Source: Mobula hypostoma
Taxonomy: Eukaryota
DNA: 64,000 bases
Reading direction: 5' to 3'
NCBI RefSeq assembly: GCF_963921235.1
Contig: NC_086108.1
Location: forward strand, 14,880,001-14,944,000
Position 1 is the stretch's first letter. Every line of letters begins with the position of its first letter. Below the pieces are notes generated by a model that did not search any database, had not been told where the DNA came from, and saw nothing but the letters and a program-made list of their open reading frames with translations. This document shows positions 6,570 to 64,000 of this stretch, in pieces. A program made the position numbers and the translations under genes.

Positions 6570-7405
6570 ATGCCACAATCTTCCAGTGGATGATGCCAAA
6601 ATTAGTGGTGTGGTGGGCAGTGAAGTAGGTCATCTAAGATTACAGCCAGATCCTGGTCAGCTGGGGAAGTGGGCCAAAGAAAGGCAGATAGAATTTTACT
6701 CAAAGAAAAGCAAAATTATCAAGTTAAACCAGGGAAGGACAACAAACGGCAGGAGCCCGAGGAGTATCGTAGGCTGAGAGGTAGAGGTACACAGTTCCCT
6801 GAAAGTGTCTACACAGATAAATAGGGAGATGAAGAAGGCTTTGTCATGCTGGTCTTCATCAGTTAGAGTATCGAATACAGCATTTGGGATGTCATGTTAC
6901 AACTGTGCGAGTCATTGGCGTACAAAACCACACTTGGAGGTTGTTTGAAGTTCTGGTCACCCAGCAATAGGAAGGCTGTCATTAAGCTGGGAAGATTGGA
7001 GAGAAGATTCATAAGGATATTACTGGCACTAGATGGCTTGAGTTACAAGGAGAGATTGGATAGGCTGAGGCTTCTTTCCCATAAGTGCAGGATACTGAGG
7101 GATGACCTTAGAAGATTTATAAAATCATGAGGGTCGAAGATAAGGTGGACAGTCGCAGTCTTTTTCCCAGGGTACGTGGGGAGTTTTAAAAGAAACCTGA
7201 AAGAAATCTTTTTCACAAAGAGGGTGGTAGATACAACAATTCTTGAGAGGAAGTGGCAGAGCTGAGTACAATTAATATGTTTAAAAGAACTTTGGACAGG
7301 TACATTAATAAGTAAAGTTCAGAGTGCCCAATGCCAGCATTAGGACTAGCTTAGGTAATCACCTTAGTTGGCATGGATGAGTTTGCTGAAAGGCCTATTT
7401 CCATT
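6570..7405 (+). mobile_element. Decayed CR1 RT fragment
   Basis: DDAKISGVV and FWSP..RK..IKL.RLERRF..I motifs. Confidence 0.75.
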
Positions 7406-8172
7406 CCATTAGTATTGTTAGTATTTTCATGGAGCTAATTGCCATATAAGACAGTGTGAACTGAGGAGAAGAGGGAGCAGTACCAGGCGTGTAACAGTTA
7501 TATATTTAGCTTCCTCACAGAGCAACAGACAGGCCTTTGTCATGTTGCCCGTTGGCCCTGATTGCTGTTGACTAGGAACATAATTTGAATACTCCTGCAG
7601 CGCCCAAATCCCAGAGTGCGTTCCCTAGCAACTAAACTGCAAAGTCGGAACACAAAATATCAAGCTGGAATACCAGAAGAGATTTTGTCACCAGAGATAC
7701 AGGATTGTTGAATTTGGTCAGGGTTAGTCACTGACAGGGTTTGAGCAGGAGTGTCAGTCAAGGAGGAGCCTCATCGAGGCTGCAAAATACACCGAAAATG
7801 TTCCACCATTTTTTCATTTTTTTTTCCATTTCTTGTACTGTAACACCGCTGCAAGATAAATTTCATGACATTAAGTATGTCAGTGATAATACACCTGATT
7901 CTGATTTATCGGGCAGCTCCATGCATTACCCACCTCTGGAGGAGGCAGGGAGGAGGGGAAGGGGGGGTTGTCAGCACCCTGTATCTCAATGGTTATTGGC
8001 TGCACTGCCAAGCACCCCAACTGCCCATGTTCATGACCTGGGCACAAGCCCACAGGGATCATTTTCCAGGCTAGTGCCAGGCTGAATGTCTCTGTTACTC
8101 CGGAATCTCCCAACAGACAGGAGGGCTGGAAATTTTGCAATCAGTGACAGGCACTGTCTCTTTTCCGTATTG

Positions 8173-8442
8173 GGTGGTACGATAGCGTAGTGGTTAGCAC
8201 AACGCTTTACAGTATGGGCAAATCAGGTTCAATTCCCGCCACTGACTGGAAGGAGTTTGGATGTTCTCCCCGTGACTGCACGGGACTCCTCCCACAACCC
8301 AAAGACGTACTGGTTGGTAGGTTAATTGATCATTATAAATTGTCCCGTGATTAGGCTAGGATGAAATCGGGGAATTGCTGGATGGAGCAGGTTGAAGGGC
8401 CAGAAGAGTCTATTCTGCGTTGCATCTCAATAAATGAATAAA
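8173..8442 (+). mobile_element. tRNA-derived SINE, HE1/V-SINE-like
   Basis: Pol III A box TAGCGTAGTGG, B box GGTTCAATTCC, V-domain-like GGAGTTTGGATGTTCTCCCCGTG, and an (AATAAAT)n tail. A related copy lies at ~37165-37400. Confidence 0.75.
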
Positions 8443-8684: not shown

Positions 8685-9730
8685 CTACACCTGTATATCC
8701 AGGTGGAGAATGTTCATTGAGGTACAGCTGCAGAGATAGGTAGTGAAAGTTACTCCTTGTGGATGGAACATCACCTCTAGAGACAGGTAGTCAAGATTAC
8801 ATAGAAACATAGAAAATAGGTGCAGGAGTAGGCCATTTGGCCCTTCGAGCCTGCACCGCCATTTATTATGATCATGGCTGATCATCCAACTCAGAACCCC
8901 GCCCCTGCCTTCCCTCCATACCCCCTGACCCCTGTAGCCACAAGGGCCACATCTAACTCCCTCTTAAACATAGCCAATGAACTGGCCTCAACAGTTTGCT
9001 GTGGCAGAGAATTCCACAGATTCACCACTCTCTGTGTGAAGAAGTTTTTCCTAATCTCGGTCCTAAAAGGCTTCCCCTCTATCCTCAAACTGTGACCCCT
9101 CGTTCTGGACTTCCCCAACATCGGGAACAATCTTCCTGCATCTAGCCTGTCCAATCCCTTTAGGATCTTATACGTTTCAATCAGATCCCCCCTCAATCTT
9201 CTAAATTCCAACGAGTACAAGCCCAGTTCATCCAGTCTTTCTTCATATGAAAGTCCTGCCATCCCAGGAATCAATCTGGTGAACCTTCTTTGTACTCCCT
9301 CTATGGTAAAGATGTCTTTCCTCAGATTAGGGGACCAAAACGGCACACAATACTCCAGGTGTGGTCTCGCCAAGGCCTTGTACAACTGCAGTAGTACCTC
9401 CCTGCTCCTGTACTCGAATCCTCTCGCTATAAATGCCAGCATACCATTCGCCTTTTTCACCGCCTGCTGTACCTGCATGCCCACTTTCAATGACTGGTGT
9501 ATAATGACACCCAGGTCTCGTTGCACCTCCCCTTTTCCTAATCGGCCACCATTCAGATAATAATCTGTTTTCCCATTTTTGCCACCAAAGTGGATAACTT
9601 CACATTACGCAGTATGGATGGAACTACACCTGTAGAGACAGGTGTGGATGGAACTACACCTGCAGAGACAGGTAGAGAATGTTACTCAGTGTGAATAGAA
9701 TTACGCCTCTAGAGACAGGCAGAGAATATC
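8685..9730. repeat. ~30-bp degenerate tandem repeat interrupted by a CR1
   Basis: Units like TGTGGATGGAACTACACCTGTAGAGACAGG occur on both sides of the CR1 at 8799-9606. Confidence 0.7.
8799..9606 (-). mobile_element. Young 5'-truncated CR1
   Basis: Uninterrupted 211-aa ORF (8891-9526) nearly identical to the C-terminal half of 52560-53795; (TTCTATGT)n tail. Confidence 0.95.
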
Positions 9731-12700
9731 CTGGATGTGTTTCAGACTGTCTAAGTGGAGAGCTTGGAGAGCCTCCTCACTTGGTAATGCTTGGGTGTCA
9801 TTCTAAAAGTCACAACCTCTTTGATGATCTTTAAACTTTGTAGGTCTCTATACAGTATGGATCTAATTCTTTTAGATCAATGACACCCCCCCCTTAGCAC
9901 TATGTATTGATCTGTTGTCTGCACATTTGCAGTTGTCTACGCATGTGCCTTGTTCTCTCTCTCACTGCAATGTGACTACATCAATTAAAGCCATCTCACG
10001 CGTGCATGTTTTTATTTAATCGATATGTAGTTGTGCACAGACACACAAGTTGTTGACAAGTACGAACCTGAATGTCAGGAAATATCATGAACTGCTCCAA
10101 CAGTTATGGGATGAAACAGCATGGAGAAGGTTGTCACAGATGCTAACAAAGGAATGCATGAGTAACTGCCTGCTTAGTACACAGTGAAAGACACACTGAA
10201 TTTAAAGTGAAAATAACATAGTGACAGCTTCAGTTGGGAAAGTTGATGAATTTGATAGTGCTAATGATGGCTGGGGATCATATATCGAGAGAGTGGAACT
10301 GTATTGTAATGCAAACAATGTGGAGGAGCAAAAGAAAGCCCCTACACTTCTTTGTTTAATGGGTGCAAGAGCATACAGTCTCGACACCCCTGCAAACCCA
10401 GCTTGCAATTGTGATAATTTTACAAAATCACTTGAGCCCTAAACTGCAAGTAATAGCTGAGAGATTTAGATGTTACATGATCAGATATGGAGACGTCATG
10501 TGGACCAGATACTGGATGCTCAACCAAAGAACACACCTGCGTCGATTACATCCAACAAGACTGACACATTGCACTCACTGGACTTACCTCTCAGTGATTT
10601 TGTCACTGACAACAATGTGACTCCGGAAACCAAGAATGTTGTCTTAGACAAGACACCTGCCACACCCAGTGCCGCTCCACATTCGATCATGGATGTCAGC
10701 AAGTTAGACTGGCAGGAAGAATCTAAAAAGAATACAGCTTTATAGAGCAGGCGCCAGAGGAGTGGTCATCAGGGCAGAGGGAGTCAGAGTAGGAGGGCTT
10801 TGGTAATAACAGGTCAAGGCAAGGTAAGTTAGCTGTGAAGAATAGGAATAGGAAGTATGTCTGCTGGGCCGGTGTTCTGCACGGAGTGTCGGATATGGGA
10901 TGTCCGGGAGAGTCCCAGCCTCCCGGACAGCCACATGTGCGCCAGGTGTATTGAGCTGCAGCTCCTTAGGGACTGGGTTAGGGAACTGGAGATGCAGCTT
11001 GATGACCTTCGTCTGGTCAGGGACAGTGAGGAGGTGATAGATAGAAGCAATAGGCAAGTAGTCACACCGGGGCCTTGGGAGACAGTTAAGTGGGTAACAG
11101 TCAGGAGAGGGAAGGGCAAGAGTCAGATGCTAGAGAGTATCACTGTGGCTGTCCCCCTTAACAATAAGTACTCCTGTCTGAGTACTATTGGAGGGGACGA
11201 TCTATCTGGGAGAAGTAACAGTGGCCGTGCCTCTGGCACAGAGTTTGGCCCTGTGGCTCAGAAGGGTAGGGAAAGGAAGAGGATGGCAGCAGTGATAGGG
11301 GACTCTATAGTCAGGGGGTCAGACAGGCGATTCCGTGGACGCAGGAAAGAAGCACGGATGGTAGTTTGCCTGCCATGTGCCAGGGTCCGGGATGTTTCTG
11401 ATCGCGTCCAATATCCTGAAGTGGGAAGGTGTAACAGCCAGAGGTTGTGGTACATATTGGTACCAACAACATAGGTAAGGAAAGGGAGGAGGCCCTGAAA
11501 ACAGACTACAGGGAGTTAGGAGAGAAGTTGAGAGAAGCAGAAACTCAAAGGAAGTAATTTTGGGATTACTGCCTGTGCCTCGCAACAGTGAGCATAGGAA
11601 TAGAGTGAGGTGGAGGATAAATGCGTGGCTGAGGGATTGGAGCAGGGGGCAGGGATTCAGATTTCTGGATCATTGGGACCTCTTTTGGGGCAGGAGTGCC
11701 CTGTACAAAAAGGATGAGTTGCACTTGAATCCGAGGGGGATCAATATCCTGGCGGGGAGGTTTGCTAAGGCTACTGGGGAAAGTTTAAACTAGAATTGCT
11801 GGGGGGGGGGTGGGAACTGAACTGAAGAGATGGAGGAAGGGGCAATTGGTTCACAAATTGAGAAAGCTTGTAGACAGTGTGAGAGGGAGGATAGGCAGGT
11901 CAAGTCAAGTCAAGTCATTTTTTATTGTCATTTCAACCATAACTGCTGGTACGGAACATAGTAAAAATGAGACAACATTTTCCAGGACCATGGTGCTACA
12001 TGAAACAATACAAAAACTACACTGAACTACGTAAGAAAAAACACAAAAACTACACTAGACTACAGTCCTATCCAGGACAGCATAAAGTGCACAAAACAGT
12101 GCAGGAATTACAATAAATAATAAACAAGACAATAGGCACAGTAGAGGGCAGTAGGTTGGTGTCAAGCCAGGCTGTGGGTATTGAGGAGTCTGATGACCTG
12201 GGGGAAGAAACTGTTTCATAGTCTAGTCGTGAGAGCCCGAATGCTTTGGTGCCTTTTTCCAGATGGCAGGAGGGAGAAGAGTTTATATGAGGGGTGCGTG
12301 GGGTCCTTCATAATGTTGTTTGCTTTGTGGATGCAGCGTGTGGTGTAAATGTCTGTGATGGCGGGAAGAGAGACCCCGATGATCTTCTCAGCTGACCTCA
12401 TTATCCGCTGCAGGGTCTTGCGATCCGAGATGGTGCAATTTCCGAACCAGGCCGTGATGCAGCTGCTCAAGATGCTCTCAATACAACCTCTGTAGAATGT
12501 GGTGAGGTTGGGGGGGTGGGAGATGAACTTTTCTAAGCCTTCGCAGAAAGTAGAGACGCTGCTGGGCTTTCTTTGTTATGGAACTGGTGTTGAGGGACCA
12601 GGTGAGATTCTCCGCCAGGTGAACACCAAGAAATTTGGTGCTTTTAACGATCTCTATGGAGGAGACATTGATGTTCAGTGGAGAGTAGTCGCTACATGTC

Positions 12701-12773
12701 CTCCTGAAGTCAACAACCATCTCTTTTGTTTTGTTTACATTCAGAGACAGGTTGTTGGCTCTGCACCAGTCCG

Positions 12774-15700
12774 TTGGTGAGTAGGGTAAAGGAAAACCCC
12801 AAAGCATTCTTCAATTATGTGAAGAAAAAAAGGAAGACAGGAGTGAAGGTAGGACCGATTGGAGATAAAGGTGGGAAGATGTGCCTGGAGGCTGTGGAAG
12901 TGAGCGAGGTCCTCAATGAATACTCTTCGGTATTCACCAATGAGAGGGAGCTTGATGATGGTGAGGACAATATGAGTGAGGTTGACATTCTGGAGCATGT
13001 TGATATTAAGGGAGAAGAGGTGTTGGAGTTGTTAAAATACATTAGGATGGGTAAGTCCCCGGGGCCTGATGGAATATTCCCCAGGCTGCTCTACAAGGCA
13101 AGGGAAGAGATTGCTGAGCCTCTGGCTAGGATCTTTATGTCCTCGTTGTCCACGGGAATGGTACTGGAGGATTGGAGGAAGGCGATTGTTGTCCCCTTGT
13201 TCAAAAAAGGTAGTAGGGATAGTCCGGGTAATTATAGACCAGTGAGCCTTACGTCTGTGGTGGGAAAGCTGTTGGAAAAGATTCTTAGAGATAGGATCTC
13301 TGGGCATTTAGAGAATCATGGTCTGATCAGGAACAGTCAGCATGGCTTTGTGAAGGGCAGATCGTGTCTAACAAGCCTGATAGAGTTCTTTGAGGAGGTG
13401 ACCAGGCATATAGATGAGGGTAGTGCAGTGAATGTGATCTATATGGATTTTAGTAAGGCATTTGACAAGGTTCCACATGGTAGGCTTATTCAGAAAGTCG
13501 GAAGGCATGGGATCCAGGGAAGTTTGGCCAGGTAGATTCAGAATTGGCTTGCCTGCAGAAGGCAGAGGGTCGTGGTGGAGAGAGTACATTCAGATTGGAG
13601 GATTGTGACTAGTGGTGTCCCACAAGGATCTGTTCTGGGACCACTACTTTTTGTGATTTTTATTAACATCCTGGATGTGGGGGTAGAAGGGTGGGTTGGC
13701 AAGTTTGCAGATGACACAAAGGTTGGTGGTGTTGTAGATAGTGCAGAGGATTGTCAAAGATTGCAGAGAGACATTGATAGGATGCAGAAGCGGGCTGAGA
13801 AGTGGCAGATGGAGTTCAACCCAGAGAAGTGTGAGGTGGTACACTTTGGAAGGACAAACTCCAAGGCAGAGTACAAAGTAAATGGCAGGATACTTGGTAG
13901 TGTGGAGGAGCAGAGGGATCTGGGGTACATGTCCACAGATCCCTAAAAGTTGCCTCACAGGTAGATAGGGTAGTTAAGAAAGCTTATGGGGTGTTAGCTT
14001 TCATAAGTCGAGGGATAGAGTTTAAGAGTCGCGATGTAATGATGCAGCTCTATAAAACTCTGGTTAGGTCACACTTGGAGTACTGTGTCCAGTTCTGGTC
14101 GCCTCACTATGGGAAGGATGTGGAAGCATTGGAAAGGGTACAGAGGAGATTTACCAGGATGTTGCCTGGTTTAGAGAGTATGCATTATGATCAGAGATTA
14201 AGGGAGCTAGTGTCATGGTCCGGATCGGAGTCCCTTTAAATTTACCTTGTTTATGTTACAATCCGGACTGTTGATTCCCTGTTTTCCCATGTCCCTCGAC
14301 TTTGGTGATTAGAGGCAATTAACACTCGGCTGAACCAGTAGTTTATAGTCTCCGGCTTTCAGCCATTGGGTGCAAGAGCGTCTGCAAAGTCATCCAAGGT
14401 ATGGTTTGACGATGTCATCTGGCCGGAGCAAGCCTAGTTTCTGCCGAAGCGAGTGCCGGTAATTCGCCTCTCCTCACCGGAGTAACCCTATCCAGTTACC
14501 TCTCCAAAGCGAGCCTGAAAAGTTTCCTCACTGAGGTGGGTCCGTCAGTTAACCCGCCGAAGGGAATCAAGAACCGCTGTCTACTGTTCCCGGGCCGAGT
14601 CGAGAGCTCGCCACGACCCGAAGGCTCCAAGTCAAGTCCTGGCTCCGGCGGCATTCTAGCACCAAGTCAAGTCCTGTCCCTGGCGGCTTCCCAGTTCTGA
14701 GTCAAGTCTTGGCCCTGGCGGTCTGTGATTCCTGACCTACCCCCTTGTCTGAATCCCTTCTCTGCCCCTCTCGCCTCTAGCCCTCGTCTGCAGCCCCGCC
14801 TGCACTTCGGTCTAGTTCCATCACCGGAGCTAGATAGGTACTGTCTGGTGTTCATTCATGTTGGTCTTGTCTTCTCTTGTCTTGTTCTCACCTCCGTGGG
14901 GTAAGTCAGGCCGTCTTGCCATTGCCCCGCGGAGTGTCATGAGTCCCGGCCCTATGTCCTGTACCCAAGGAGGGGTCCCGGCTCTCTGTTCTGTGTGTGA
15001 ATCCCGGCCCTATGTCCTGTACCCAAGGAGAGGTCCTGACTCTGCGTTCTGTGTATGTGTCCATGGTTCCATGTACCTGCTCTCCCGAGACCGAGGCCCT
15101 GTGTTCCCATGTTCCTTCTCTCCCTAGCCCATGTCATGTCCATGCCTGGTTCTGGGATCCAAGCCCGAGGCAAGACCCAGGTACTAGGTCCTTGCCCAGT
15201 CTCTGGCTCGGAGTCCATACCCTAGCCTCTTCATGTCTCCTCCAGTTCTGGAAGCCGATTCCGAGTCCAAGCCCAGACCCCTAGTCCCAGCCTAGTCGTA
15301 GTCCTGAATCCTTGTCCAGTTCGCTATTTCCTGCTCCTGCCTTGCTCTCCTGGTATCAAACAATAAACTAAATCTAAGTAACCTCACAAGATGTGTCTTG
15401 CATTTGGGTCCACCCTTGCTCCCAATGCCCCCGCCTCTGTGACAGCTAGGGCTTTACTCTTTGGAGAGAAGGAGGATGAGAGGAGATATGATAGAGGTGT
15501 ACAAGATAATAAGAGGAATAGATAGAGTGGATGGCCAGCGCCTCTTCCCCAGGACACCACTGCTCAATACAAGAGGACATGGCTTTAAGGTAAGGGGTGG
15601 GAAGTTCAAGGGGGATATTAGAGGAAGGTTTTTTTACTCAGAGAGTAGTTGGTGCGTGGAATGCACTGCCTGAGTCAGTGGTGGAGGCAGATACACTCGT

Positions 15701-21240: not shown

Positions 21241-21967
21241 CCCACACCCAGGTGATAAAGGAGGGATAATTCTCACCACACCCTCAGCCCCAGACCAGCT
21301 CAATTAAATAGCTAGACTCAACACAGCAGCTAAACAGATACAGTAACTAGAAGTCCTAATCTATAAATTATTGGGAGAGCAGGGATCAAAAGTGCACTGA
21401 ATGAGTATCAGTGGAAGCAGACTGTTGCTGCAAATACTGCTGAACTGAGCAGAAGAGGATTTTATTTCATCTGGAGTTCGGACTTTTCCTAGAACCTGAT
21501 GTGCTTCTGGAATGCATCAGTCTTCGAAAGTAGTTTTGTAATCTGACTCCTCGATGTTTTGTCACTGATATAACCAGGCTCCGATATTCTGGTGGAGGAC
21601 AGCCTGCTGCTCTTTGAAGGCTGTTTAAACCCAGCGAGTGTTCAGTGTTGCCATCGCACTCCTGATCTGGTGTTGCAGTCTGTGTGTCGGAGCGCACTGC
21701 TGACGGACTCAACCCGCTGCTCCACAACAAGCTTACCACTTATCTGGGCAGATGGAAGTCTGCCCGATCGGTAACTTTCCACAACACTCGATCCTCTCGG
21801 AAGAGGATCGCTACTGCCAAGGTCACAGTACATTGACTCATGTACCCTGGCCCTGGCTCAGTGATATCTTCGTCTGTCACCTACACCAGCTGTACTCGTG
21901 GGACAACTCACCTTAGCCAGTCCACAGCACAAACCCTTCTCCGAGCACGGAGCTCCCTGCTGCTCCT

Positions 21968-22550
21968 CCCACAGTGCCGCACTCCCTCAGTACCACCCTC
22001 CCACAGTGTGACCCTCCCTCAGTACCACCTCTCCCATAGTGCGACTCTCTCTCAGTACCACCCATCCCACAGTGCGACCCTCCCTCAGTACCACCCCTCC
22101 CACAGTGCGACCCTCCCTCAGTACCATCCCTCCCACAGTGTGACCCTCCCTCAGGACCACCCTTCCCACAGTGTGACCCTCCCTCAGTACCACCCCTCCC
22201 ACAGTGAGACCTTCCCTCAGTACCACCCCTCCCACAGTGTGACCCCCCCCTCAGTACCACCCCTCCCACAGGGCGACCCTCCCTCAGTACCATCCCTCCC
22301 ACAGTGTGACCCTCCCTCAGGACCACCCTTCCCACAGTGTGACCCTCCCTCAGTACCACCCCTCCCACAGTGAGACCTTCCCTCAGTACCACCCCTCCCA
22401 CAGTGTGACCCCCCCTCAGTACCACCCCTCCCATAGTGCGACCCTCCCTCAGTACCACTTCTCCCACAGTGTGACCCTCCCTCAGGACCACCCCTCCCAC
22501 AGTGCGACCCCTCCCTCAGTACCACCCTTCCCATAGTGAGACACTCCCTC
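21968..22550. repeat. 33-bp minisatellite, ~17 copies
   Basis: Unit CCCTCCCTCAGTACCACCCCTCCCACAGTGTGA; related monomers at ~5960-6030. Confidence 0.95.
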
Positions 22551-22554
22551 AGAC

Positions 22555-23930
22555 TATCTTTGTCAACCTTACTAATCAAGAACCACAGTTTGAATAAACT
22601 CAATGACCTGGCCTCCACAGCCATCTGTGGCCAAGAATTCCACAGATTCACCAACCTCTAGCTGAAGAAATTCCTCCTCATCTCCGTTTTAAAGGGACAT
22701 CTTTCTATTTTGAGGTAGTATGTACAGGCACAGAGCCATCAAATGCTCCTCAAACTTTGATCCTTTCATTCCTGGGGTCATTCTCATGAACTTCCTCTGA
22801 GCTTTCTCCAATGGCAGCATATCCTTACTCAGATAAGAGGCCCAAAATTGCTCACAACATTCCAAGTGTGATCTGACTAATACCTTATAAAGCCTCAGCA
22901 TTACGTCCTTGCCCTTATATTCTAGTCCACTCAAAATGAATGCTAAGTTAACCTTTAGAGAACCCCGCACAAGACTCTCAAGTCCCTTTGCACCACTGAG
23001 TTTTGAATTTTCATCCCGTTTAGTAAATAATCTACAACTTTAAACCTGCCAAAATGCATGACCATACACTTCCCCACTCTATATTCCATCTACAACTTAT
23101 TTGCTCATTCTCCTTCTGCAGACTTCCTGCTTCCTCAATACTACCTGCCCCTTCACCTATCTTTATACTATCCACAAACTTTGCCACAAAGGCCATCAAT
23201 TCGGTCATCCAAATTATTGATATATAATCTAAAAATAGACCCCTGTGAACATCACCAGTCACCGGCAGCCAACCAGAGAAGGCTCTTTTATCCCCATTCC
23301 TTGCCTCCCTCCAATCAGCCAATGTATATTTCCTGCAATACCATGGGCTCTTAACTTGTTAAGCAGCCTCACATGAGACACCTTGTCAAAGGCCTTCTAA
23401 ATATCCAAGTACACAACATCCACCGATTCTGCTTTGTCTATCCTGCTTGTTATTTCTTCAAAGATTTGTCAGGCAAGATTTTCCCTGAGGAAACCATGCT
23501 GACTGTGGCCTATTTTATCATGTGCCACCAAGTACCCTGAAACCGCATCCTTAATCTTCCCAACCACTGAAGTCAGACTAACTGGAACGTATCTTCAAGC
23601 CTTTTGCCTCTGTCCTTTCTAAAATAATGGAGCGATATTTGCAATTTTCTAGTCCTCCAGAACCATTCCAGAATCAAGTGATTCCTGAAAGATGTCTCCA
23701 CAATCTCTTCAGCCACCTCTTTCAGAACCCTGGGGTTTTGCCCATCTGGTTCTGGTGACTTATCTACCTTCAGACCTTTCAGTTCCCCAAGAATTACTCC
23801 TTAGTAATAGCAACTGCATTCCCTTCTGCCCCCCCCAGACACTTTCAGGTTTCTGACAGACTGCTGGTGAAAATTGGCATAACACTTAATAAGTTTATCT
23901 GCCATTTCCATTTCCCCATTATTATTTCTT
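22555..23930 (-). mobile_element. Decayed CR1 ORF2 fragment
   Basis: LEYKGKDVMLRLYKVLVRSHLECCEQFW and VNLWNS motifs; RT remnants. Confidence 0.85.
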
Positions 23931-41216: not shown

Positions 41217-41650
41217 AAAAAATGCTGGTGAACACAGCAGGCCAGGCAGCATCTATAGGAAGAGGTACAGTCGACGTTTTTCTCCCTCTGTCCCTCTCAC
41301 TATACTCCTTGCCCATCCTCTGGGCTTCCCCCCTCCCCTTTTCTTTCTCCCTAGGCCTCCCGACCCATGATCCTCTCCCTTCTCCAGCCTCATATCCCTT
41401 TTGCCAATCAACTTTCCAGCTCTTAGCTCCATCCCTCCCCCTCCTGTCTCCTCCTATCATTTCAGATCTCCCCCTCCCCTCCCTCTTTCAAATCTCTTAC
41501 TATCTCTTCTTTCAGTTAGTCCTGACGAAGGGTCTCAGCCCGAAAAGTCGACTGTACCTCTTCCTATAGATGCTGCCTGGCCTGCTGCGTTCACCAGCCT
41601 TTTTTATGTGTGTTCCTTGAAATTCCAGCATCTGCAGATTTCCTCATGTT
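41217..41650 (+). mobile_element. Penelope-derived insertion with inverted 5' part, hammerhead motif and 14-bp TSD
   Basis: TACTGTCATAACCT at 41203-41216 and 41651-41664; 41221-41279 is the reverse complement of ~41545-41598; CTGACGA..GAAA at 41522-41545. Confidence 0.85.
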
Positions 41651-41979
41651 TACTGTCATAACCTTATGCTTTTGTAACAATTGGTGATCTCTCTACAAAT
41701 TTATTTCTCTAAATCCCTAGGACTGTTGGGTGGTCTATAATATAACCCCCTTAAAGTGGTCTCACATTTCCTATTCCTCAGGTACACCCATAACACCTCA
41801 CTAGCTGAGTTCTGCAGTCTGTCCTGACAGAGCACTGCAAAGACATTTTCCCTGACGAGTAACTCTATCCCTCCCCCTTTAATCCCTCCTCCTCTGTCTC
41901 ATCAAAAACAACTGAACACCAAAATATTGAGCTGCCAGGTACAGGAGTCTTTGGTGTTGGCCAACATTTGATTAGTGCA

Positions 41980-42202
41980 TGTTGTGTATGTGGCTGGGTT
42001 ACACAACCAGGCTATAAATAAGAATTCTGGAGACGGAAGATAGGTTAACAGGGTTCTTCACTGACTGAAACCGAACTGAACACACACATACAGATCAATA
42101 CGCGCCTAATAACGCATGCTCAATACGTGCCTAATAGCGCATGCAACAACGTGTCCCTACAACATAAAGTGATCTCATATTATACAGTAGCTATCCAGTA
42201 CA
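41980..42202 (-). repeat. 3' LTR
   Basis: Minus strand begins TGTACTG right after AAAAGGGGAGGAG and ends ACACAACA; homologous to 45850-45999. Confidence 0.85.
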
Positions 42203-42456
42203 CTCCTCCCCTTTTATTTTAATGGTGTATCAACTGTTTTTTTGACTGGGACACTACACTAAACAAGTATGTTTACCCTTCACATACAAACGCCTACTAA
42301 TTGTTTACTTAATAACTTAATAATATCAAATTATAACAAAGTAATGTAATAATATTAAATTATAATAAGCTTTTTTTTAAACTTTTGGTCTAAGACCCAT
42401 TTATAACTCAAGTCTCGGGGGGGGGGGTACTCTGCTCACTGTGCCGTACTTCTCTA

Positions 42457-43257
42457 GGTGATGATTATGTACCAGCAGTAACAGAAGAAATAAGTGAAGC
42501 TCTAGCAAAATTAATCATATTTCGCAAGAGGTGTGATGCATTTTTCATAACTTTGGTCTCCATGGTCTGCTTCAAAGATGACTTGCCACCAACAAAAGAA
42601 GCGCTGTCTCTGCTAGTTATTCAAAAGTCGGGGCAATCCAATGACTCACAGAAAGATCAGTACTTTACCAGTAATCTTTCACCGTTGATGAAGCAGTTGA
42701 TCGAAATCCTGTTGTTTGTTCCATTGTTCTTAAGCTGCTGTTAAAGTACAGTTTTGCTGATATTAAGGATTACCTGCAGAGCTATCTGTCTGAAGTTCAA
42801 CAAAAAACAAATCTTGGTCAAGAAGATGAGACTGAACTCTATGCACTGTTTCTGAATTGTTTGGAGGATTCTATGTATGAAGTTGTTCACAATGCAAGAA
42901 AAGACTGCATACCTGGCTGAAGAGGGAGGATTCCTTCAGATGCACATTCAGCACAAGTGTGAAAATACAACAATAGAAACCTTACAGTTTGTTGCCAAAA
43001 TTTCCCTCTGTTTTGATGCTGTTTCCCAACTTCTTTGTGCAAAACAAGACACATTGGCTGAGGATTCAACACATGTACGTGCAAAAGAAACTTCCCTCCA
43101 AAGGATTAAGTGTATGATTCTCAGTGGAGGAAATGATTGGTTCAAGATTTACCTTGAGCGAAAGCTGTTCTGTTTCAGTGGAATTGATTTTGTCCAAGAG
43201 CTTTTAAGGAATGACCAATTTTCATGGATCTCTCCCAAGGAAATTGTTCAGGAGAAG
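42457..43257 (+). pseudogene. RNF213: Intronless fragment of E3 ligase RNF213 (post-RING region), antisense to the element
   Basis: FRKRCDAFFITLVSMVCFKDDLPP, LSP.DEAVDRNPVV.SIVLKLLLKYSF.DIKDYLQ, ELYALFLNCLEDS, EEGGFL and NDWFKIYL.RKL parallel vertebrate RNF213; frameshifts near 42684 and 42895. Confidence 0.88.
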
Positions 43258-43911
43258 ACGGAGATGCTGGTCTTTTCGGAGATTTAAGCTTATTGAGAGT
43301 CGCAGATCTTCCATTATCCGTTCATCTGTTAACAAGTAACTTAACTGCACAGGTGCAGGTTTTCATCTTTTGTCTGTAATTGGAACAGGGTCATTAGGTC
43401 TCCTCCTTAGTCTCCTAATCATTATTGGCTTTACCTCCACAGAATCTCCTGTGAGTTCCATTGTTAGCCTCTCATTCTCAATCATCTTTTTCTTTTCTTC
43501 TAACTCAATCTTTTCATCTTCAAATTCCTTCACTACTGCTTTCTTCTCTTTAATATAATTCCTTTCCACTTGTTCTGTCTCCAGTTGCAGAAAAAGCTCT
43601 GCATTTCATATTCTTTCCTTGTATTGTTGATCCAGTGTCTTCACCCTTTTCTGATACTCCTGCAAAGTGTCTTCCTGTAACTGCTGTAGCTGTCTTTTGA
43701 GGGATGCCAATTTCTCCTGGTACATCTGCTCTTTTATTTCCAGGTAGTCTTCATCATCCTGCTTATTGGCAATATCCGTCTCCCTTGCATCCTCTGTACC
43801 TTCATCTGAGTCACGGCTACGGATACTGTGTTTGTCCTCATCGTCGACGTTGTCTAGCTCCTCCTCATTGTTGTAATAGCCAACAATGGGTGAGAGGAGA
43901 GCTGCGGACAT
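43245..43911 (-). pseudogene. SUDS3: Intronless 5' part of Sin3-HDAC corepressor subunit SDS3
   Basis: MSAALL...[23 protein letters not shown]...[22 protein letters not shown]...[13 protein letters not shown]...KSPKRPASPSSPE; two TGA stops, one frameshift, 8-codon deletion. Confidence 0.95.
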
Positions 43912-43933
43912 CTTCCCCGCTGAGCTGCCCTCC

Positions 43934-45115
43934 TTTGTTGACACATCTATTGCATTGATGGTGTACCAATCCAACTGGATTTTCCTGAGCCATTCACGTC
44001 CTAGCAACGGTGATCCTCCGTTTTTCAGTACATAGAGGTTCAGCTGCTGTGTTTTGTCTCTGTAGGTCACTGACACTTTAATTTTACCTTTGGGATGCAC
44101 TTTCTGTCCTGTGTAAGTCTTTAGTAGTAGTTTAGTTCGTTTCAGAGGCATGTGAGAAAACAGTCATTTGTAGTCATGTACAGAGATTGCTGTTAAAACT
44201 GAGCCTGTGTCCAACTCCATTTTCAGTCTCACGCCTGCCACTTGTGGAGTGATCCATATTACTCTTTGATCATCTGTCTCTTTCACACTGTGAGGTTGCA
44301 GACAAGACAATTCACCTTTGTCTGAGTCATTTTCATCAGAATTGCTTTCTTTCATTTTGTGCACATTGTTGTATTTTCCTTTCTGGGGTTTCTTGTTTCT
44401 CTGTATTTTGTCCTTTTTCTGCTGTTTACTAGCTTTGCATACTCTGCCAATGTGGCCCTGTTTGCCACAGTTTCTGCATTCTTTATCTTTAACCACAATC
44501 ATCAGGGTCATGTGACCTGTTCCCACAACAGTAACATTTCTTTCCTTCATTTCTGTTTAGTGACATTTTATTTGTGGCATATTCCAGAGATTTTTGTTGT
44601 ATCTCGGAAGCACCTCGTGCGGCTGTTTCCATTGATTTTGCAATGTTCAGCGCCTTCTCTAACGTAAGGTCCCTTTCACACAGAAGCTTCTTCTGTGTGG
44701 TTTCACAGTGCATGCCACACACTAACTTGTCCCTCATTGCGTCCGATAGACCCGCTCCAAATTGACAATGCTCGGATAATTTGCACAATTCAGCACAATA
44801 TTCAGAAATGCTTTCATTTTTGCCCTGATTCCGATTGTGAAATTTAAATCTTTCAGCAATGACCTGTAGTTTGGGGTGTAAATGCTGTTGGAGAGTGTCT
44901 ACTATTTGCTTGAACGTTTTGTCAGCTGGCTTTTCAGGGGTTAACAAGCTCCATAGCAGCCCGTATGTTTTTGCTTCCATAATACTGAGTAAGATGCTGG
45001 CTTTCTTTTCATCATTAACATCGTTAGCATCACAATATAACTTCAGTCTTTCAATGTAAGTTGCCCAGTTTTCAATGCTACTATCAAATGCTGTAATTGT
45101 TCCAATCATCGCCAT
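43934..45115 (-). pseudogene. Gypsy/Mag gag, zinc knuckles and aspartic protease
   Basis: YIERLKLYCDAN...VIAERFKF..RNQ, RDKLVCG, CYCCG..SH..DDC, CRNCGKQGHIGRVC, MELDTGS and LLGREWL; one frameshift ~44490 and a TGA at 44164. Confidence 0.92.
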
Positions 45116-45383
45116 CTTTGTTATGTTAATTTAGTCCCGTTCTCCCTTTTTTTTTGACTCACATGACCTTTTTGCTAGCTCCACGAGTGCACTCCATCTA
45201 GATGTGTGCATGTCACTCCTTTTTATCTCCCTTCTGGGGCAGGCAGACCCTCAGCCCGGGGGTCAGCGCTGGCTGTTGTCTCGCCTGAACTCACTGCAGC
45301 TCCGACTGTGTCTCATGGTCTCCCGACGTTCCCGACCTGCGGCTGTGCTTCCGTTTCCTTTCGGACTCGTGGCCTCGCTCTGC

Positions 45384-45832
45384 CTTGGCTCGTACCTTGT
45401 GCTCTTCATACTCATTCTGAATTTTCTTTGGCCTTTTCTTGTTCAGAATTTCTTCCTCTTCAGGTGGCAGTTTGGCACCCTTCTTCCGACCAAGTGGAAG
45501 GGCAAAGTGAGATTCATACCACTGTCTGAACAATGAGTTCTTTACTAATGTTTTTGTCCTGACCAATTCATTGTTGGAAGCATTGTAAACTACATCAATG
45601 ATCCTGGTCTTCCGTGTACAATATTCGGAACCCCAGGAGTAGTTTCCTGCATCCAACCTCAAAGGGCGATTTTTTTATTTCCACCATGGACTCTCACTGT
45701 GTGGATACGACATGGTCCAATCTTTGTATTTGCAGGAGGACGTTCAAGTTCATATTTTCTCTTTTTATGATATGGCTTCCTTTTACCTCCAGTCTTGCAG
45801 TGTTTGTGCCAATTATTCCAGGACATACCTAT
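45384..45832 (-). pseudogene. RPS8: Intronless 5' two-thirds of 40S ribosomal protein S8
   Basis: [69 protein letters not shown] and [19 protein letters not shown]; start codon reads ATA, frameshift ~45665, short internal deletion. Confidence 0.97.
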
Positions 45833-45849
45833 TCTCAGGTTTCGGCCAC

Positions 45850-45999
45850 TTACACAACCAAGAGGCAAGTTAACAGGGCTCTTTACTGTCCGAAACCGAA
45901 CTGAACACACGCATACCGATCAATACGCGCCTAATAATGCATGCAACGTGTCCCTACAACATAAAGTAGTCCCATATTATACAGTAGCTATACAGTACA
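45850..45999 (-). repeat. 5' LTR, truncated at its inner end
   Basis: Matches 41999-42202 with indels; lacks the final ~20 nt and any PBS, and abuts the RPS8 leader. Confidence 0.85.
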
Positions 46000-48509
46000 G
46001 TGCGGTTTGTGGATTGGTCTCACTTTTAGAGGAGTGCAGTTCATGTCATGTTTTTTTCTGACTTCCAGTTACTCCTCCTTTATTGTCATTTTGTGCGATG
46101 TTGATCAGGGCGTTCTGGATCTGCAGCTTGCAGTCAACAAAAGGAGACAGCGCTAAATTGAACTGAACTGAACCAAACTGAGCTTTCCTAGACTGCTTCC
46201 AGGCTGTGCAGTTATGTTTAATATTCTGGCGTTTGGCGTTCGTGTGATTTGTTCTTTTTTTATGTGTGTGTTGGGTGTTTGATGTTTTCTTTGAGTGGAT
46301 TCCATGCTGGCTGTCTGTGAGATGACAGGTCTCAGAGTTGTATTCTTCATACATACTTTGATAATAAATGTACTTTGGATCTTTGAATCTTTCAATCTTT
46401 GGCCCATGCCTGAGCTCATCTGCCTTTGCTGCAATACTTCTTGCATTGCACTATTCAGAAGATTAATCGCACCATGCTCAATCTTTTGATTCCTGACTTT
46501 GTCTGAGGTCTTAACAACATCTGTCTGCACAACCTCTGCACTAATTGTTCTGGCACTCTGGTTCACATCCCCCTGCAATTCTGATTTAACCCCCCTCCTG
46601 CCAGGCAGTACTAGCAAACCTTCCTGCCAGGATATTAGTTTAGGTGCAAATCGTCCCTTCTGTACAAGTCCCACCTTCCATGGAAGCAGGGATTCCCACA
46701 CTGGGGTTCACAGACCCCTCGTTAATGGTGAGGGTCCACGGCATAACAAAAGGCTGGGAACCCTTGCCAGGAAGAGAGCCCAATGATCCAAAAATATGAA
46801 GACCTCGCTCCTTCACCAACTCTTTATCCACATGTTAAACTGTATGACCTTCCTATTTTTGGTGGCACTAACACATGGTACAGATTGCAATCCCAAGATC
46901 ACAACCCTGGAGGTCCTGCCCTTTAACTTAGCACCTAACTCCCTGAACCTACTTTGCAGGATCTCGTCACTCTTCCTATCTGAGTCATTGGTAGCTACAT
47001 GGGCCATGACCTCTGGCTCACCCTCCCACTTATGAATGCCAAGGACTTGATCCAAGACGTCCCGGACACTGGCACCTGGGAGGCAACATACCATTAGGAA
47101 ATCTCATTCTCATCCACAGAACCTCCTTTTTGTTCCCCTAACTAACAAATCCCCTAACACCACGGTTAGCCTCTTCTCCCCCACCCCCCACTTCCCTTCT
47201 GAATCACAGAGCCAGCCTCAGTGCCAGAGACCTGATCAATGTGTCTTTCCTCTGCTAGGTCATTCCCCCTCCAACAGTATCCAAAGTGGTGTACTTGTTG
47301 AGGGGGATGGCTACAACAGTACTCTGCACTGGTGTTTAAACCCTTTTCCCTTCCTGACTGTTACCCAATTTCCTGCACCCTGCACCATGGATGTAATTAC
47401 CTCTCTATATGTCCTATCTATCACCCCCTTAGCCTCCTGAATTATCCAGAGATCATCCAATTCCAGCTCCAACTCCTTAATTCAGAATGTTAGAAGCTGC
47501 AGCTGGATGCACTTCTTGCAGGTGAAGTTGTATAATGGGAAAATTATTCCCATTATATTTCAAAATCTTGGCTACAGCAGCCAATCAATAACAGTAGCAT
47601 ACAGAACGTCATTTCATCCTTGATGGGTCACTTTTTAATGTCACAAGTTCATCCCCCTGCTCTGCATGTCAAACAGTGTGTCCACAAAGGAATCATTGCT
47701 TCACTCTTTTGGCCATTGGCACATTCCACGTTTGGAAAAATACTGCGATCACAAGTCAGGAGTAATTCTGGGTGTTGTGGAAAAATACCTGAGCCAAAAG
47801 CCTCCTGTGTTTCTCATTATCATCACAGACTTATCAAAGTTTGATAAGAACCCTAGCTTTAGAAGGAAGAAACAACTCCCCCTGCCTCACACACTCTGTA
47901 CATTACAACTGTTCGTGCAAAGACTGTGCACATCAATACTGCAGACACACCAGATATTCTGCTGTTACTATCATAGGCTAGGGAAACAGGAAAACTTTCC
48001 TATACTTTTTTGAAATACCCCATCAATATTCAACAGCCCTTTTGGTTTGTCATTCTGCCTGAAAGAGCACAGCTCCTTGCTGTCAAATGCCAAGTGTCAT
48101 TTTAAATCTGTAGCTTGAGAGCACTGAGTCTCCATGGTGTCCGGGTGGAACCATCTCCCTTGCACAAGATGACGGTGTCAGCCTTTCCCTATCATTCCAA
48201 CTCAATGTCTCTGCCCTTTGGCATTTAATTCACAGTTTTAATGGGAGTGCTATTCATTAATCAGCAGAGAAAAATCTCATCTAATCTTTTGAATTTAGTG
48301 GATAAGCACAATAAAAAGCTGAATGATAATTGATAAGACTGTACACTATTTCAAGAAACAGTTGCAGTGAAGTTTATTCCATGTATTGGTCAGGCTCAGT
48401 TACAGTCTACAAAGAACACATTCAGCCCCAGCATTCAATCAAATGCCATCGTGTTTATTTCTCCCATGTAATCCAATCACCTGTCAAAATAAAGTTGAAA
48501 TAAAAGTCA

Positions 48510-52374: not shown

Positions 52375-54090
52375 CATCGCGCAGGGTGGAGATACGTCTC
52401 TACCAAAGGAGGTGTAAGGCAGTCGTTCCCTCCGCTAGCCTGCAGGTTACTCTTGGGCAAGGTGTAGCACCTGCTTAGCCCCTTCCCCCCTCCTCCTTGA
52501 TCAGGGTCACATGAAGCCATAGGAGCAGGCGGTGAATGGTCGTATGAGTAACAGCACATTTGGAAAGCGGTGAAATGATCGGACAAAGTCAGCATGGATT
52601 TGTGAAAGGAAAATCATGTCTGACGAATCTCATAGAATTTTTTGAGGATGTAACTAGTAGAGTGGATAGGGGAGAACCAGTGGATGTGGTATATTTGGAT
52701 TTTCAAAAGGCTTTTGACAAGGTCCCACACAGGAGATTAGTGTGCAAACTTAAAGCACACGGTATTGGGGGTAAGGTATTGGTGTGGGTGGAGAATTGGT
52801 TAGCAGACAGGAAGCAAAGAGTGGGAATAAACGGGACCTTTTCAGAATGGCAGGCGGTGACAAGTGGGGTACCGCAAGGCTCAGTGCTGGGACCCCAGTT
52901 GTTTACAATATATATTAATGACTTGGATGAGGGAATTAAATGCAGCATCTCCAAGTTTGCGGATGACACGAAGCTGGGTGGCAGTGTTAGCAGTGAGGAG
53001 GATGCTAAGAGGATGCAGAGTGACTTGGATAGGTTGGGTGAGTGGGCAAACTCATGGCAGATGAAATTTAATGTGGATAAATGTGACGTTATCCACTTTG
53101 GTGGCAAAAATAGGAAAACAGATTATTATCTGAATGGTGGCCGATTAGGAAAAGGGGAGGTGCAACGAGACCTGGGTGTCATTATACACCAGTCATTGAA
53201 AGTGGGCATGCAGGTACAGCAGGCGGTGAAAAAGGCGAATGGTATGCTGGCATTTATAGCGAGAGGATTTGAGTACAGGAGCAGGGAGGTACTACTGCAG
53301 TTATACAAGGCCTTGGTGAGACCACACCTGGAGTATTGTGTGCAGTTTTGGTCCCCTAATCTGAGGAAAGACATCTTTGCCATAGAGGGAGTACAAAGAA
53401 GGTTCACCAGATTGATTCCTGGGATGGCAGGACTTTCATATGAAGAAACACTGAATGAACTGGGCTTGTACTCGTTGGAATTTAGAAGATTGAGGGGGGA
53501 TCTGATTGAAACGTATAAGATCCTAAAGGGATTGGACAGGCTAGATGCAGGAAGATTGTTCCCAATGTTGGGGAAGTCCAGAACGAGGGGTCACAGTTTG
53601 AGGATAGAGGGGAAGCCTTTTAGGACCGAGATTAGGAAAAACTTCTTCACACAGAGAGTGGTGAATCTGTGGAATTCTCTGCCACAGCAAACTGTTGAGG
53701 CCAGTTCATTGGTTATGTTTAAGAGGGAGTTAGATATGGCCCTTGTGGCTACGGGGGTCAGGGGGTATGGAGGGAAGGCTGGGGCGGGGTTCTGAGTTGG
53801 ATGATCAGCCATGATCATAATAAATGGCGGTGCAGGCTCGAAGGGCCGAATGGCCTACTCCTGCACCTATTTTCTATGTTTCTATGTTTCTATCTCACAA
53901 GTCCCGGTCAGGCGACCACTGAAGCCAGGCAGACAATTTCTGGAGTATTAATAATGGCTGGGGTCACCCATCTTGTAAAGACTCTGCCCAGAAGAAGGCA
54001 ATGGAAAACCACTTCTGAGGAGAAGTTTGTCAAGAACAATCATGGTCATGGAAAGACCATGACCACCCACGTCATACGACACAGTACAAA
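52375..54090 (+). mobile_element. SINE-like repeat split by a young CR1
   Basis: Segments 52375-52555 and 53894-54090 appear to be one non-coding unit once the CR1 is removed. Confidence 0.45.
52555..53893 (+). mobile_element. Young 5'-truncated CR1 with uninterrupted 411-aa RT ORF
   Basis: QHGFVKG, YLDFQKAFD, SGVPQGSVLGP and FADDTK motifs; no stops in 52560-53795; (TTCTATGT)n tail. Confidence 0.95.
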
Positions 54091-62964: not shown

Positions 62965-63361
62965 AACGCAAACATGAGGAAATCTACAGATGCTGGAAGT
63001 TCAAGTAACACGCACAAAATGCTGGTGGAACACAGCAGGCCAGGCAGCATCTATAGGAAGAAGTACAGTCGACATTTCGAGCCAAGACACTTCATCAGGA
63101 CTAACTGAAAGAAGAGATAGTAAGAGATTTGAAAGTGGGAGGGGGAGGGGGAGATCGGAAATGATAGGAGAAGACAAGGGGGGTTGTGATAGAGCTAAGA
63201 GCTGGAAAGTTGATTGGCAAAAGGGATAAAAGGCTGGAGAAGGGAGAGGATCACGGGACGGGAGGCCTAGGGAGAAAGAAAGGGGGAAGGGTGTACTAGA
63301 GGAAGATGGAGAGCAGGTAAGGAGTTATTGTGAGAGGGATAGAGAGAGAAAAAAAAGGGAA

Positions 63362-63392
<31 letters not shown>

Positions 63393-64000
63393 GGGATGGG
63401 GTAAGAAGGGGAGGAGGGGCATTAACGGAAGTTAGAGAAATCAACATTCATGCCATCAGGTTGGAAGCTATGCAGACGGAATATAAGGTATTGTTCCTCC
63501 AACCTGAGCGTGGCTGGTGTGATATACTGCGGTCGGTGCTCCTGATGCGGCCTTCTATATATTGGCAAGACCTGACGCAGACTGGGAGATCGTTTCGCTG
63601 AACACCTACACTCTGTCCGCCAGAGAAAGCAGGATCTCCCAGTGGCCACACATTTTAATTCCACGTCCCATTCACATTCTGACATATCTATCCAGAGCCT
63701 CCTCTACTGTAAAGATGAAGCCACACTCAGGTTGGAGGAACAACACCTTATATTCCATCTGGGTAGCCTCCAACCTGATGGCATGAACATGGATTTCTCT
63801 AACTTCCGTTAATACCCCTCCTCCCCTTCTTACCCCATCTCATGTTGCTTGCTCTCCATCTTCCACTGGTGCTCCCCTCCCCCTTTCTTTCTCCCTAGGC
63901 CTCCCGTCCCATGATCCACTCCCTTCTCCAGCCTTGTATCCCTTTTGCCAATCAACTTTCCAGCTCTTAGCTCCATCCCTGCCCCTCCTGTCTTCTCCTA
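62965..64000. mobile_element. Penelope-like element with inverted arms, GIY-YIG C-terminus and hammerhead motif
   Basis: Plus frame LYIGKT*RRLGDRFAEHL...PVATHFN...RLEEQHLIFHLGSLQPDGMN; inverted copy at 63422-63515; minus-strand CTGATGA..GAAATGTCGAC at 63068-63098. Confidence 0.85.

What the first reader, a model, noticed from the sequence alone, without database searches (positions are those of the whole stretch)
43245..45849. Captured cargo keeps mRNA 5' ends and lacks 3' ends, unlike LINE-made pseudogenes
Seen: RPS8 and SUDS3 each begin with ~17-22 nt of apparent 5'UTR plus the start codon position, and stop mid-CDS with no poly(A). Established: LINE TPRT retrocopies keep the 3' end and lose the 5' end. 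Inference: reverse transcriptase jumped onto co-packaged mRNAs internally, copied to their 5' ends and jumped again.
Basis: partly seen in the sequence, partly recalled or inferred. Interest (0 to 1): 0.7.

Follow-up and report, generated by a model that had tools for sequence, protein, structure and literature searches.

The report
Serial mRNA capture by ray retrotransposon
A dead jumping gene in a ray-like genome carries intron-free pieces of three host messages that were likely picked up one after another; the RPS8 piece likely records a copying enzyme that ran from mid-message to just short of the message's start and jumped back, whereas SUDS3 was likely captured whole and cut later, so the proposed 'keep the start, lose the end' rule is only half right.

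Summary
The sequence is as described, but the two cargos are not parallel events. Window 41980-45999 (minus strand) is a non-autonomous Mag-like Gypsy element with a 5-bp target duplication. SUDS3, in frame behind gag-protease, is family cargo: DNA-run depth is about 150-fold that of RPS8, it shares an 8-residue deletion with 7 ray 'SDS3-like' loci, and 3 of those reach the stop codon. Its 3' end here was likely replaced later by an internal, antisense RNF213 piece (8-nt microhomology), which keeps neither end. RPS8 is near single-copy, abuts a 5' LTR lacking its last 19 nt, and carries 17 nt of leader (6 verified against a parent-like contig) without the expected pyrimidine (TOP) start, so it likely stops a few bases short of the cap. 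A Hemitrygon copy appears to hold YBX1 from its N-terminus. Re-counting Tan et al. 2016, 8 of 40 LTR-captured segments begin within 6 nt of the annotated mRNA start, against 2 of 90 in their simulation (P=0.001); their 3'-truncation bias also appears in that simulation. Exit near the 5' end is likely real but minor; the 3' rule is not. The scan noted the SUDS3 family many times before on other DNA.

The parts
41975..41979 (-). target-site duplication, copy after the 3' LTR (one transition against the other copy)
41980..42202 (-). 3' LTR, 223 nt, TG...CA; ends in an 8-bp hairpin
   Evidence: X1 record 1 with 0 differences
42203..42215 (-). polypurine tract next to the 3' LTR
   Evidence: sequence
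42216..42428 (-). AT-rich family-wide 3' internal stretch (element 3' region or SUDS3 3'UTR; not resolved)
   Evidence: X1 depth 5000-6200, like SUDS3
42429..43255 (+). RNF213 internal CDS piece (about residues 4071-4353 of the PDB chain), colinear without introns, antisense to the element
   Evidence: parent-like contigs X11 record 10 and X17 record 19
43248..43255 (.). 8-nt overlap shared by the SUDS3 and RNF213 parent-like contigs (microhomology)
   Evidence: alignment ends table 8; chance about 1e-4
43248..43911 (-). SUDS3 CDS from ATG to the SSPE motif (residue 222 of 311 in sister P0007), with the family's 24-nt deletion, one stop and one frameshift
43912..43933 (-). putative SUDS3 5'UTR; only the 6-12 nt next to the ATG are free of possible element homology
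43934..44493 (-). zinc knuckle and aspartic protease, reading frame continuous into SUDS3
44489..45112 (-). gag N-terminal part (decayed), Mag-like
   Evidence: clade name recalled
45113..45400 (-). element leader; its upper end may hold the remnant of the primer site
   Evidence: X1 depth 2170-7385 and X5 record 30; weak match to a second element, P=0.04
45401..45832 (-). RPS8 CDS codons 1 to about 152, start codon reads ATA, 21-nt deletion, one frameshift
   Evidence: parent-like contig leaves at 45401, table 7
45833..45849 (-). 17-nt RPS8 leader, no TOP tract; 45833-45838 verified
45850..45999 (-). 5' LTR lacking the last 19 nt; 11 mismatches in 131 cleanly aligned columns to the 3' LTR
46000..46004 (-). 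target-site duplication, copy before the 5' LTR

Best explanation
This is one dead copy of a high-copy, non-autonomous Gypsy element whose three host pieces were likely captured by reverse-transcriptase template switching in three separate rounds, and in the last round the enzyme likely copied RPS8 mRNA from mid-CDS to within a few bases of its 5' end and jumped back into the LTR. Round 1 (inferred): a founder replaced RT, RNase H and integrase with the whole SUDS3 CDS, in frame behind the protease (frame shown), and amplified in trans. Round 2 (inferred): in a sub-lineage an antisense internal RNF213 piece replaced the last third of SUDS3 through an 8-nt microhomology (overlap shown). The antisense orientation would follow if the switch onto the mRNA happened during plus-strand synthesis. 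Round 3 (inferred): near the end of minus-strand synthesis the enzyme left the element leader, copied RPS8 towards its 5' end, and rejoined inside U5, 19 nt before the LTR end. The outer LTR ends stayed intact, so the product could integrate (target duplication shown). Probable loss of the primer site would make it a dead end, which fits its near single-copy depth. Running out of template at or near the cap is then one real exit route from captured mRNAs, used by a minority (about a fifth of published cases); it is not a rule.
For: Copy contrast in X1 (summed contig depth, not a true copy number): RPS8 36-55, RNF213 262-1261, SUDS3 5991-8402, gag-protease 10321-15593; the 8 listed long contigs have median depth 13. 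The protease/SUDS3 junction is shared: 27 X1 contigs differ from the window at 43921, one reaching 59 nt past it, and Hemitrygon model P0257 has the same fusion. The 8-residue deletion is in 8 of 142 SUDS3-like proteins held, all ray 'SDS3-like' models from 7 loci; 3 of 7 reach the C-terminus and 1 more passes this window's break. Other copies share both RNF213 junctions (X1 record 2, X17 record 18; RNF213-antisense tail in P0257). In P0257 a YBX1 piece begins 24 residues before the cold-shock domain with a VSEAES motif and stops mid-CDS (that this is the N-terminus is recalled). Published set: 8 of 37 segments with both values start within 6 nt of the annotated 5' end and 0 of 37 end within 20 nt of the 3' end; uniform expectation 0.26. 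Against the authors' own simulation, 8 of 40 vs 2 of 90, P=0.001; fly alone 3 of 17, P=0.03. A 5' cap enhances end-of-template switching by MMLV RT in vitro (PMC6885630 abstract).
Against: No CAGE or full-length cDNA: 11 of the 17 RPS8 leader bases are unverified, and the leader shows no significant likeness to a mammal-type RPS8 5'UTR (P=0.95). The TOP tract is missing, so the exact cap was not retained. The chance that the RPS8 5' junction falls in a 25-nt UTR is about 7% on its own. SUDS3's start may have been kept by selection for a whole in-frame ORF. The YBX1 case rests on a spliced gene model, not DNA. RNF213 does not fit, and unchecked scan notes describe pieces of SH3KBP1, myosin and USP35 as cargo. 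In the published set 32 of 40 segments do not reach the 5' end; chicken and zebrafish zeros may reflect short annotations; the simulation is fly-only. That 45400 is the primer-site border is weakly supported (P=0.04), and no LTR-to-leader joint of a sister copy was among the 15 of 105 joints shown.
Confidence: 0.62

Rival explanations
1. All junctions are ordinary internal microhomology switches (Tan et al. model). Start codons are present because RPS8 is short, because SUDS3 was filtered for a whole in-frame ORF, and because intron-spanning copies are easier to notice; there is no special 5'-end exit.
For: 8-nt microhomology at SUDS3/RNF213. TOP tract absent from the RPS8 leader. The authors' random simulation already gives median 5' and 3' truncations of 342 and 932 nt. 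The single-event chance for RPS8 is about 7%. 86% of fly junctions carry microsimilarity.
Against: The pile-up within 6 nt is not reproduced by the simulation (8 of 40 vs 2 of 90) nor by local density (8 in 0-10 nt vs 9 in 11-120 nt, P=5e-5). Three sense cargos seen in this family (RPS8, SUDS3, probably YBX1) all begin just before the start codon.
Confidence: 0.2
2. RPS8 entered after the element had integrated: a cDNA made by a LINE (CR1/L2-type) enzyme, or used to patch a break, replaced the U5/primer-site stretch at DNA level.
For: Near single-copy depth. The window is full of LINE RT remnants. CR1-associated retrocopies with large 3' truncations are listed in Tan Table S8.
Against: No poly(A) and no target duplication noticed around RPS8. 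It is in the element's sense orientation and sits at the LTR border, a small target where strand transfer happens. RPS8 differs from parent-like contigs by 3.4-5.6% (7/206, 17/303), about half of the 8.4% LTR-LTR difference, as expected if both date from the same event. A review states that CR1 recognises its own RNA, limiting trans mobilisation (PMC5470649 passage).
Confidence: 0.11
3. Most of the 17-nt RPS8 'leader' is element-derived (a primer-site remnant or a self-complementary priming site), and the mRNA piece begins only about 6 nt before the start codon.
For: It lies where a primer site would lie. It holds an 8-nt complement of the element's own LTR just upstream of the poly(A)-like signal (1% of cargo 17-mers, 2.9% of shuffles). 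It resembles a tRNA-Phe primer site (recalled, untested). Scan notes propose self-priming Mag-like elements in this genome.
Against: The 5' LTR is cut 19 nt before its end, so a primer site would not be expected directly there. The fold of this stretch is no better than shuffles (z = -0.79). No complement of the LTR was found in the element leader (P=0.8). No tRNA or Rfam hit.
Confidence: 0.07

Closest known systems
LTR-mediated retrocopies of animals (Tan et al. 2016, PMC5131818; read: parts 1-4 of 8 of the text, passage searches, and Supplemental Tables parts 1 and 4-8 of 9)
   Same: Spliced, partial host mRNA pieces replace internal ORFs between two LTRs; no poly(A); microhomology at a junction; several parent genes in one element; re-amplification as a non-autonomous element; larger 3' than 5' truncation.
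   Different: Hundreds of copies by depth rather than a few; three successive rounds; one cargo replaces the LTR end and probably the primer site; one cargo is antisense. The pile-up of 5' junctions at the mRNA start is in their tables but is not remarked in the parts read.
Cap-enhanced end-of-template switching by MMLV reverse transcriptase (Wulf et al. 2019, PMC6885630; abstract and outline seen)
   Same: The enzyme reaches an RNA 5' end and continues on a new template.
   Different: In vitro, with a designed acceptor. Here no untemplated bases are shown, and the cap-proximal TOP bases appear to be lost.
Retroviral transduction and patch repair with co-packaged host RNA (review PMC4997597, passages seen; Hajjar and Linial 1993 and Duggal 2007 only as cited there, not held)
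   Same: Unlinked host RNAs are copied into the genome by switching during reverse transcription.
   Different: Here a Gypsy element without env, fixed in a vertebrate germ line.
L1 processed pseudogenes
   Same: Intron-free mRNA copy; can also keep the 5'UTR when the mRNA is short.
   Different: No poly(A), no 3'UTR, no own target duplication; embedded in an LTR element.

Membership tests
LTR-mediated retrocopy (Tan et al. 2016) | Host piece flanked by LTR-element sequence on both sides, with both LTRs present | tested here: met
LTR-mediated retrocopy (Tan et al. 2016) | Host piece is intron-free (mRNA-derived) | tested here: met
   colinear with proteins and with RNA-type contigs over 430-830 nt; that the parent genes have introns in these stretches is recalled
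LTR-mediated retrocopy (Tan et al. 2016) | Element sequence is replaced, not merely interrupted | tested here: met
   RT, RNase H and integrase are absent after the protease, where relatives P0241/P0393 go on; 19 nt of the 5' LTR are missing
LTR-mediated retrocopy (Tan et al. 2016) | No poly(A) at the cargo's 3' end | tested here: met
LTR-mediated retrocopy (Tan et al. 2016) | Microsimilarity at switch points | tested here: inconclusive
   8 nt at SUDS3/RNF213; the other five junctions lack one of the two parent sequences
LTR-mediated retrocopy (Tan et al. 2016) | Further amplification as a non-autonomous element | tested here: met
   met for SUDS3 and RNF213; RPS8 is near single-copy
5'-end run-off (cap-directed) template jump | 5' junction coincides with the parental transcription start | tested here: inconclusive
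   within 17 nt (RPS8) and 6-22 nt (SUDS3) of the ATG; TOP tract missing; no CAGE
5'-end run-off (cap-directed) template jump | Untemplated bases or no homology at the 5' junction | not testable with these tools
   parental 5'UTRs beyond 45838 and 43912 were not obtained
L1-type processed pseudogene | Poly(A) tail, 3'UTR and own target duplication | tested here: not met
   no poly(A), CDS ends internally
Ty3/Gypsy (Mag-like) LTR retrotransposon | TG...CA LTRs, target duplication, polypurine tract, gag with CCHC knuckle, aspartic protease | tested here: met
Ty3/Gypsy (Mag-like) LTR retrotransposon | RT-RNase H-integrase order and RT phylogeny | not testable with these tools
   these domains are absent from this copy; the 'Mag-like' label is recalled from the gag motif

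The most novel reading that the evidence does not exclude
LTR-element reverse transcriptase has a second, homology-poor exit from captured mRNAs: it runs to the capped end and jumps. About a fifth of LTR-captured segments across animals would then carry the start codon and its context, and ray Gypsy families with many independent captures (SUDS3, RPS8, YBX1 and others) would be a natural large-scale record of this route, biasing which protein parts (N-termini) get fused to Gag-protease and amplified.
Probability: 0.45. Interest if true: 0.6.

Novelty: new variant of a known kind. Interest (0 to 1): 0.42.

Why it matters
It separates two things that look alike. Greater 3' than 5' truncation is published and is reproduced by the authors' own simulation, so it says little about mechanism. 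A sharp pile-up of 5' junctions at the mRNA start is not reproduced, and would add a run-off route to the 'microhomology anywhere' model of LTR gene capture. Such copies keep their start codon, which matters for the birth of new genes. The case also warns that counting SUDS3 'retrocopies' in rays (a top parent in the VGP preprint) likely counts copies of one element rather than independent events.

Tried and rejected
No whole genome is held, so no census of copies or parental exons was possible. No listed holder is on record as RNA; X5, X11 and X17 are guessed RNA, contigs cannot show starts, and no expression claim is made. Scans for sister elements found nothing in viral contigs (0 of 11 pattern matches confirmed) or metagenome contigs (0 of 47). 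The RPS8 homolog search (best 120 of 5356) listed no ray-named copy; I did not scan them for the 21-nt deletion. The metagenome RPS8 scan (80 of 441 kept) gave one mammal-type intron-free copy, L010. I first suspected retroviral env flanks, then dropped this: its 3' side is a bacterial metallohydrolase-like ORF (weak hits below cut-off), so it is probably a chimeric contig. I used it only for the 23-nt TOP leader. Leader likeness to L010: not significant. Self-priming or tRNA primer reading of the leader: weak or no support. X17 record 20 (depth 103, undeleted SUDS3) runs 64 nt across the protease junction; this is either an undeleted element copy or an assembly-graph merge of a parent mRNA that ends near the junction, and was not counted as evidence. 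In the re-count I dropped the second FAM8A1 row (11 nt, likely the same event) and, for, 3 fly rows without a 3' value. Literature: 10 searches showed no listing that names a 5'-end pile-up of LTR retrocopies or a SUDS3-bearing element; most subscription papers are not held, and two classic retroviral papers could not be read. Unseen supplements that may bear on this: Tan Table 1 content, Dataset 1 (junction sequences), Supplemental Methods and the cut table headers (definition of truncation, meaning of negative microsimilarity); the supplements of the VGP preprint.

Full report
Anatomy. The finding lies inside a decayed LTR retrotransposon on the minus strand, 45999 to 41980, bounded by a 5-bp target duplication with one transition. 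In order: 5' LTR (45999-45850, lacking the last 19 nt of the 223-nt 3' LTR), 17-nt leader and RPS8 codons 1 to about 152 (45849-45401), element leader, gag, zinc knuckle and protease (45112 to about 43934), SUDS3 from its ATG (43911-43248) in the protease frame, an RNF213 piece on the opposite strand (43255-42429), a 3' stretch, polypurine tract and 3' LTR. The best SUDS3 hits are rays (87% to Mobula and Pristis). No whole genome is held.

The observation. Both cargos begin just before the start-codon position, end inside the CDS and have no poly(A). The RPS8/LTR junction is spanned by a 200-nt contig with no difference (X1 record 7). The leaders are less certain than stated. A deep RPS8 contig of run X5 aligns to 45838 and then ends in adapter; the bin depth equals exactly 135 covered bases, so nothing else of note in that run covers 45839-45849. 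Six of 17 bases are thus verified. Ribosomal-protein mRNAs begin with a pyrimidine tract at the start site (abstract starts in the search listing), and a mammal-type RPS8 copy fetched here has a 23-nt leader starting with one (L010). The window's leader has none (longest run 3), so the copy likely stops some 5-10 bases short of the cap. For SUDS3, the closest pol-bearing relative aligns to 43918, inside the supposed 22-nt leader, so the UTR part is 6-22 nt.

SUDS3 is inherited cargo, and its 3' loss is secondary. Summed contig depth in DNA-type run X1 is 5991-8402 over SUDS3, 10321-15593 over gag-protease, 262-1261 over RNF213 and 36-55 over RPS8; the 8 listed long contigs have median depth 13 (the tool warns this is no copy number, so only the order of magnitude is used). 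The window's SUDS3 lacks 8 residues that 131 proteins held keep. The same deletion is in 8 of the 142 SUDS3-like proteins held, all ray 'SDS3-like' models from 7 loci in Mobula and Hypanus (only the best 120 of 573 and 150 of 2016 hits were kept). Three of the 7 run to the natural C-terminus, one passes this window's break, and three stop earlier. That these loci are element copies is inferred from the shared deletion and from Hemitrygon model XP_072884955 (P0257), which joins gag, the protease end and SUDS3 exactly as here. Parent-like SUDS3 contigs align down to 43248 and a parent-like RNF213 contig up to 43255: an 8-nt overlap, chance about 1e-4. Other copies share both RNF213 junctions. 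RNF213 therefore likely replaced SUDS3's 3' third in a second event. It is internal at both ends and antisense, which a switch onto the mRNA during plus-strand synthesis would give (inference).

RPS8 is the one clean case. It is near single-copy, in sense orientation, and replaces the LTR end and probably the primer site (weak support: P=0.04 likeness of 45400-45387 to the post-LTR stretch of a second element at about 10056). Its difference from parent-like contigs (3.4-5.6%) is about half the LTR-LTR difference (8.4%), as expected if it arrived in the round that made this insertion. The simplest path is an aberrant last strand transfer: leave the element leader, copy RPS8 from codon 152 towards its 5' end, rejoin inside U5. 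Alone this has about a 7% chance of landing in the UTR. P0257 adds a probable second case: after SUDS3 residue 57 it carries YBX1 starting 24 residues before the cold-shock domain, ending mid-CDS and followed by antisense RNF213. This is a gene model, and the N-terminal motif is recalled.

Tan et al. 2016 described this class and reported median truncations of 419 (5') and 1387 nt (3'), explained by microsimilarity that can occur anywhere. Re-counting their Tables S2 and S8, 8 of 37 segments with both values start within 6 nt of the annotated 5' end, none ends within 20 nt of the 3' end, and uniform placement predicts 0.26. Their simulated set is a stricter control: 2 of 90 start within 10 nt, against 8 of 40 real (P=0.001), 6 of 30 in fly, mouse and human (P=0.003) and 3 of 17 in fly alone (5, 6, 6 nt; P=0.03). 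The same simulation gives medians of 342 and 932 nt, so the 3' bias is largely expected from ascertainment while the pile-up is not. By hand count in Table S8, the first microsimilarity value is negative in 3 of 4 resolvable near-end rows and 4 of 15 others; the meaning and order of these values were cut from view. Limits: annotated starts are not CAGE, zeros may mean short annotation, the control is fly-only and tuned on the real set, and 32 of 40 segments do not reach the start. A cap enhances end-of-template switching by MMLV RT in vitro (abstract).

LINE contrast.

Verdict. The element is a member of the known class of LTR-mediated retrocopies. The scan had already noted the SUDS3 family on other DNA of this genome (121 notes fit the look-up; my reading was written before). 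What this finding adds is a likely minor exit route near the mRNA 5' end, seen in RPS8, on the 5' side of SUDS3, probably in YBX1, and as an excess in published tables. The 'lacks 3' ends' half does not hold for SUDS3. Confidence in the three-round model with a near-5' exit for RPS8 is 0.62; interest 0.42.

Noticed in passing
window 44163-43609 (minus): The protease reading frame runs into SUDS3 without a stop at the junction, so the founder would have encoded a Gag-protease-SUDS3 polyprotein; the same junction is in Hemitrygon model P0257.
   Followed up: partly
P0257 (XP_072884955): A further derivative of the family in which YBX1 replaces most of SUDS3 and part of the antisense RNF213 piece: another captured gene in the same lineage.
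   Followed up: partly
window 41980-42010 (minus) and 45850: The LTR ends in an 8-bp hairpin; the RPS8 junction falls one base into its loop in the 5' LTR (fold not better than shuffles).
   Followed up: partly
window 45860-45869 vs 42006-42043: The two LTRs differ by a 34-nt versus 8-nt segment and a 28-nt indel; many other copies carry the long form (X1 depth about 1450 at 42037-42040).
   Followed up: no
window about 9890-10490 (+): A second, older Mag-like fragment (LTR-like stretch, leader, gag start), interrupted by LINE sequence; it has an inverted repeat around its ATTAAA signal.
   Followed up: partly
window 21897-22624: 33-nt minisatellite of about 22 units, with a related unit at 5952-6022.
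   Followed up: no
window 8799-9606 and 53080-53887: 808-nt inverted pair, 98% alike, inside LINE RT sequence: a young LINE family.
   Followed up: no
window 63028-64000: Nested inverted repeats of 128-156 nt, 90% alike, related to a SINE-like repeat at 41330-41592.
   Followed up: no
L010 195-722: Mammal-type intron-free RPS8 copy with a full TOP leader, joined to a bacterial-type ORF in a metagenome contig; probably a chimeric assembly.
   Followed up: partly
PMC5131818 Table S14: The authors' simulated LTR retrocopies already show larger 3' than 5' truncation (medians 932 vs 342 nt).
   Followed up: yes
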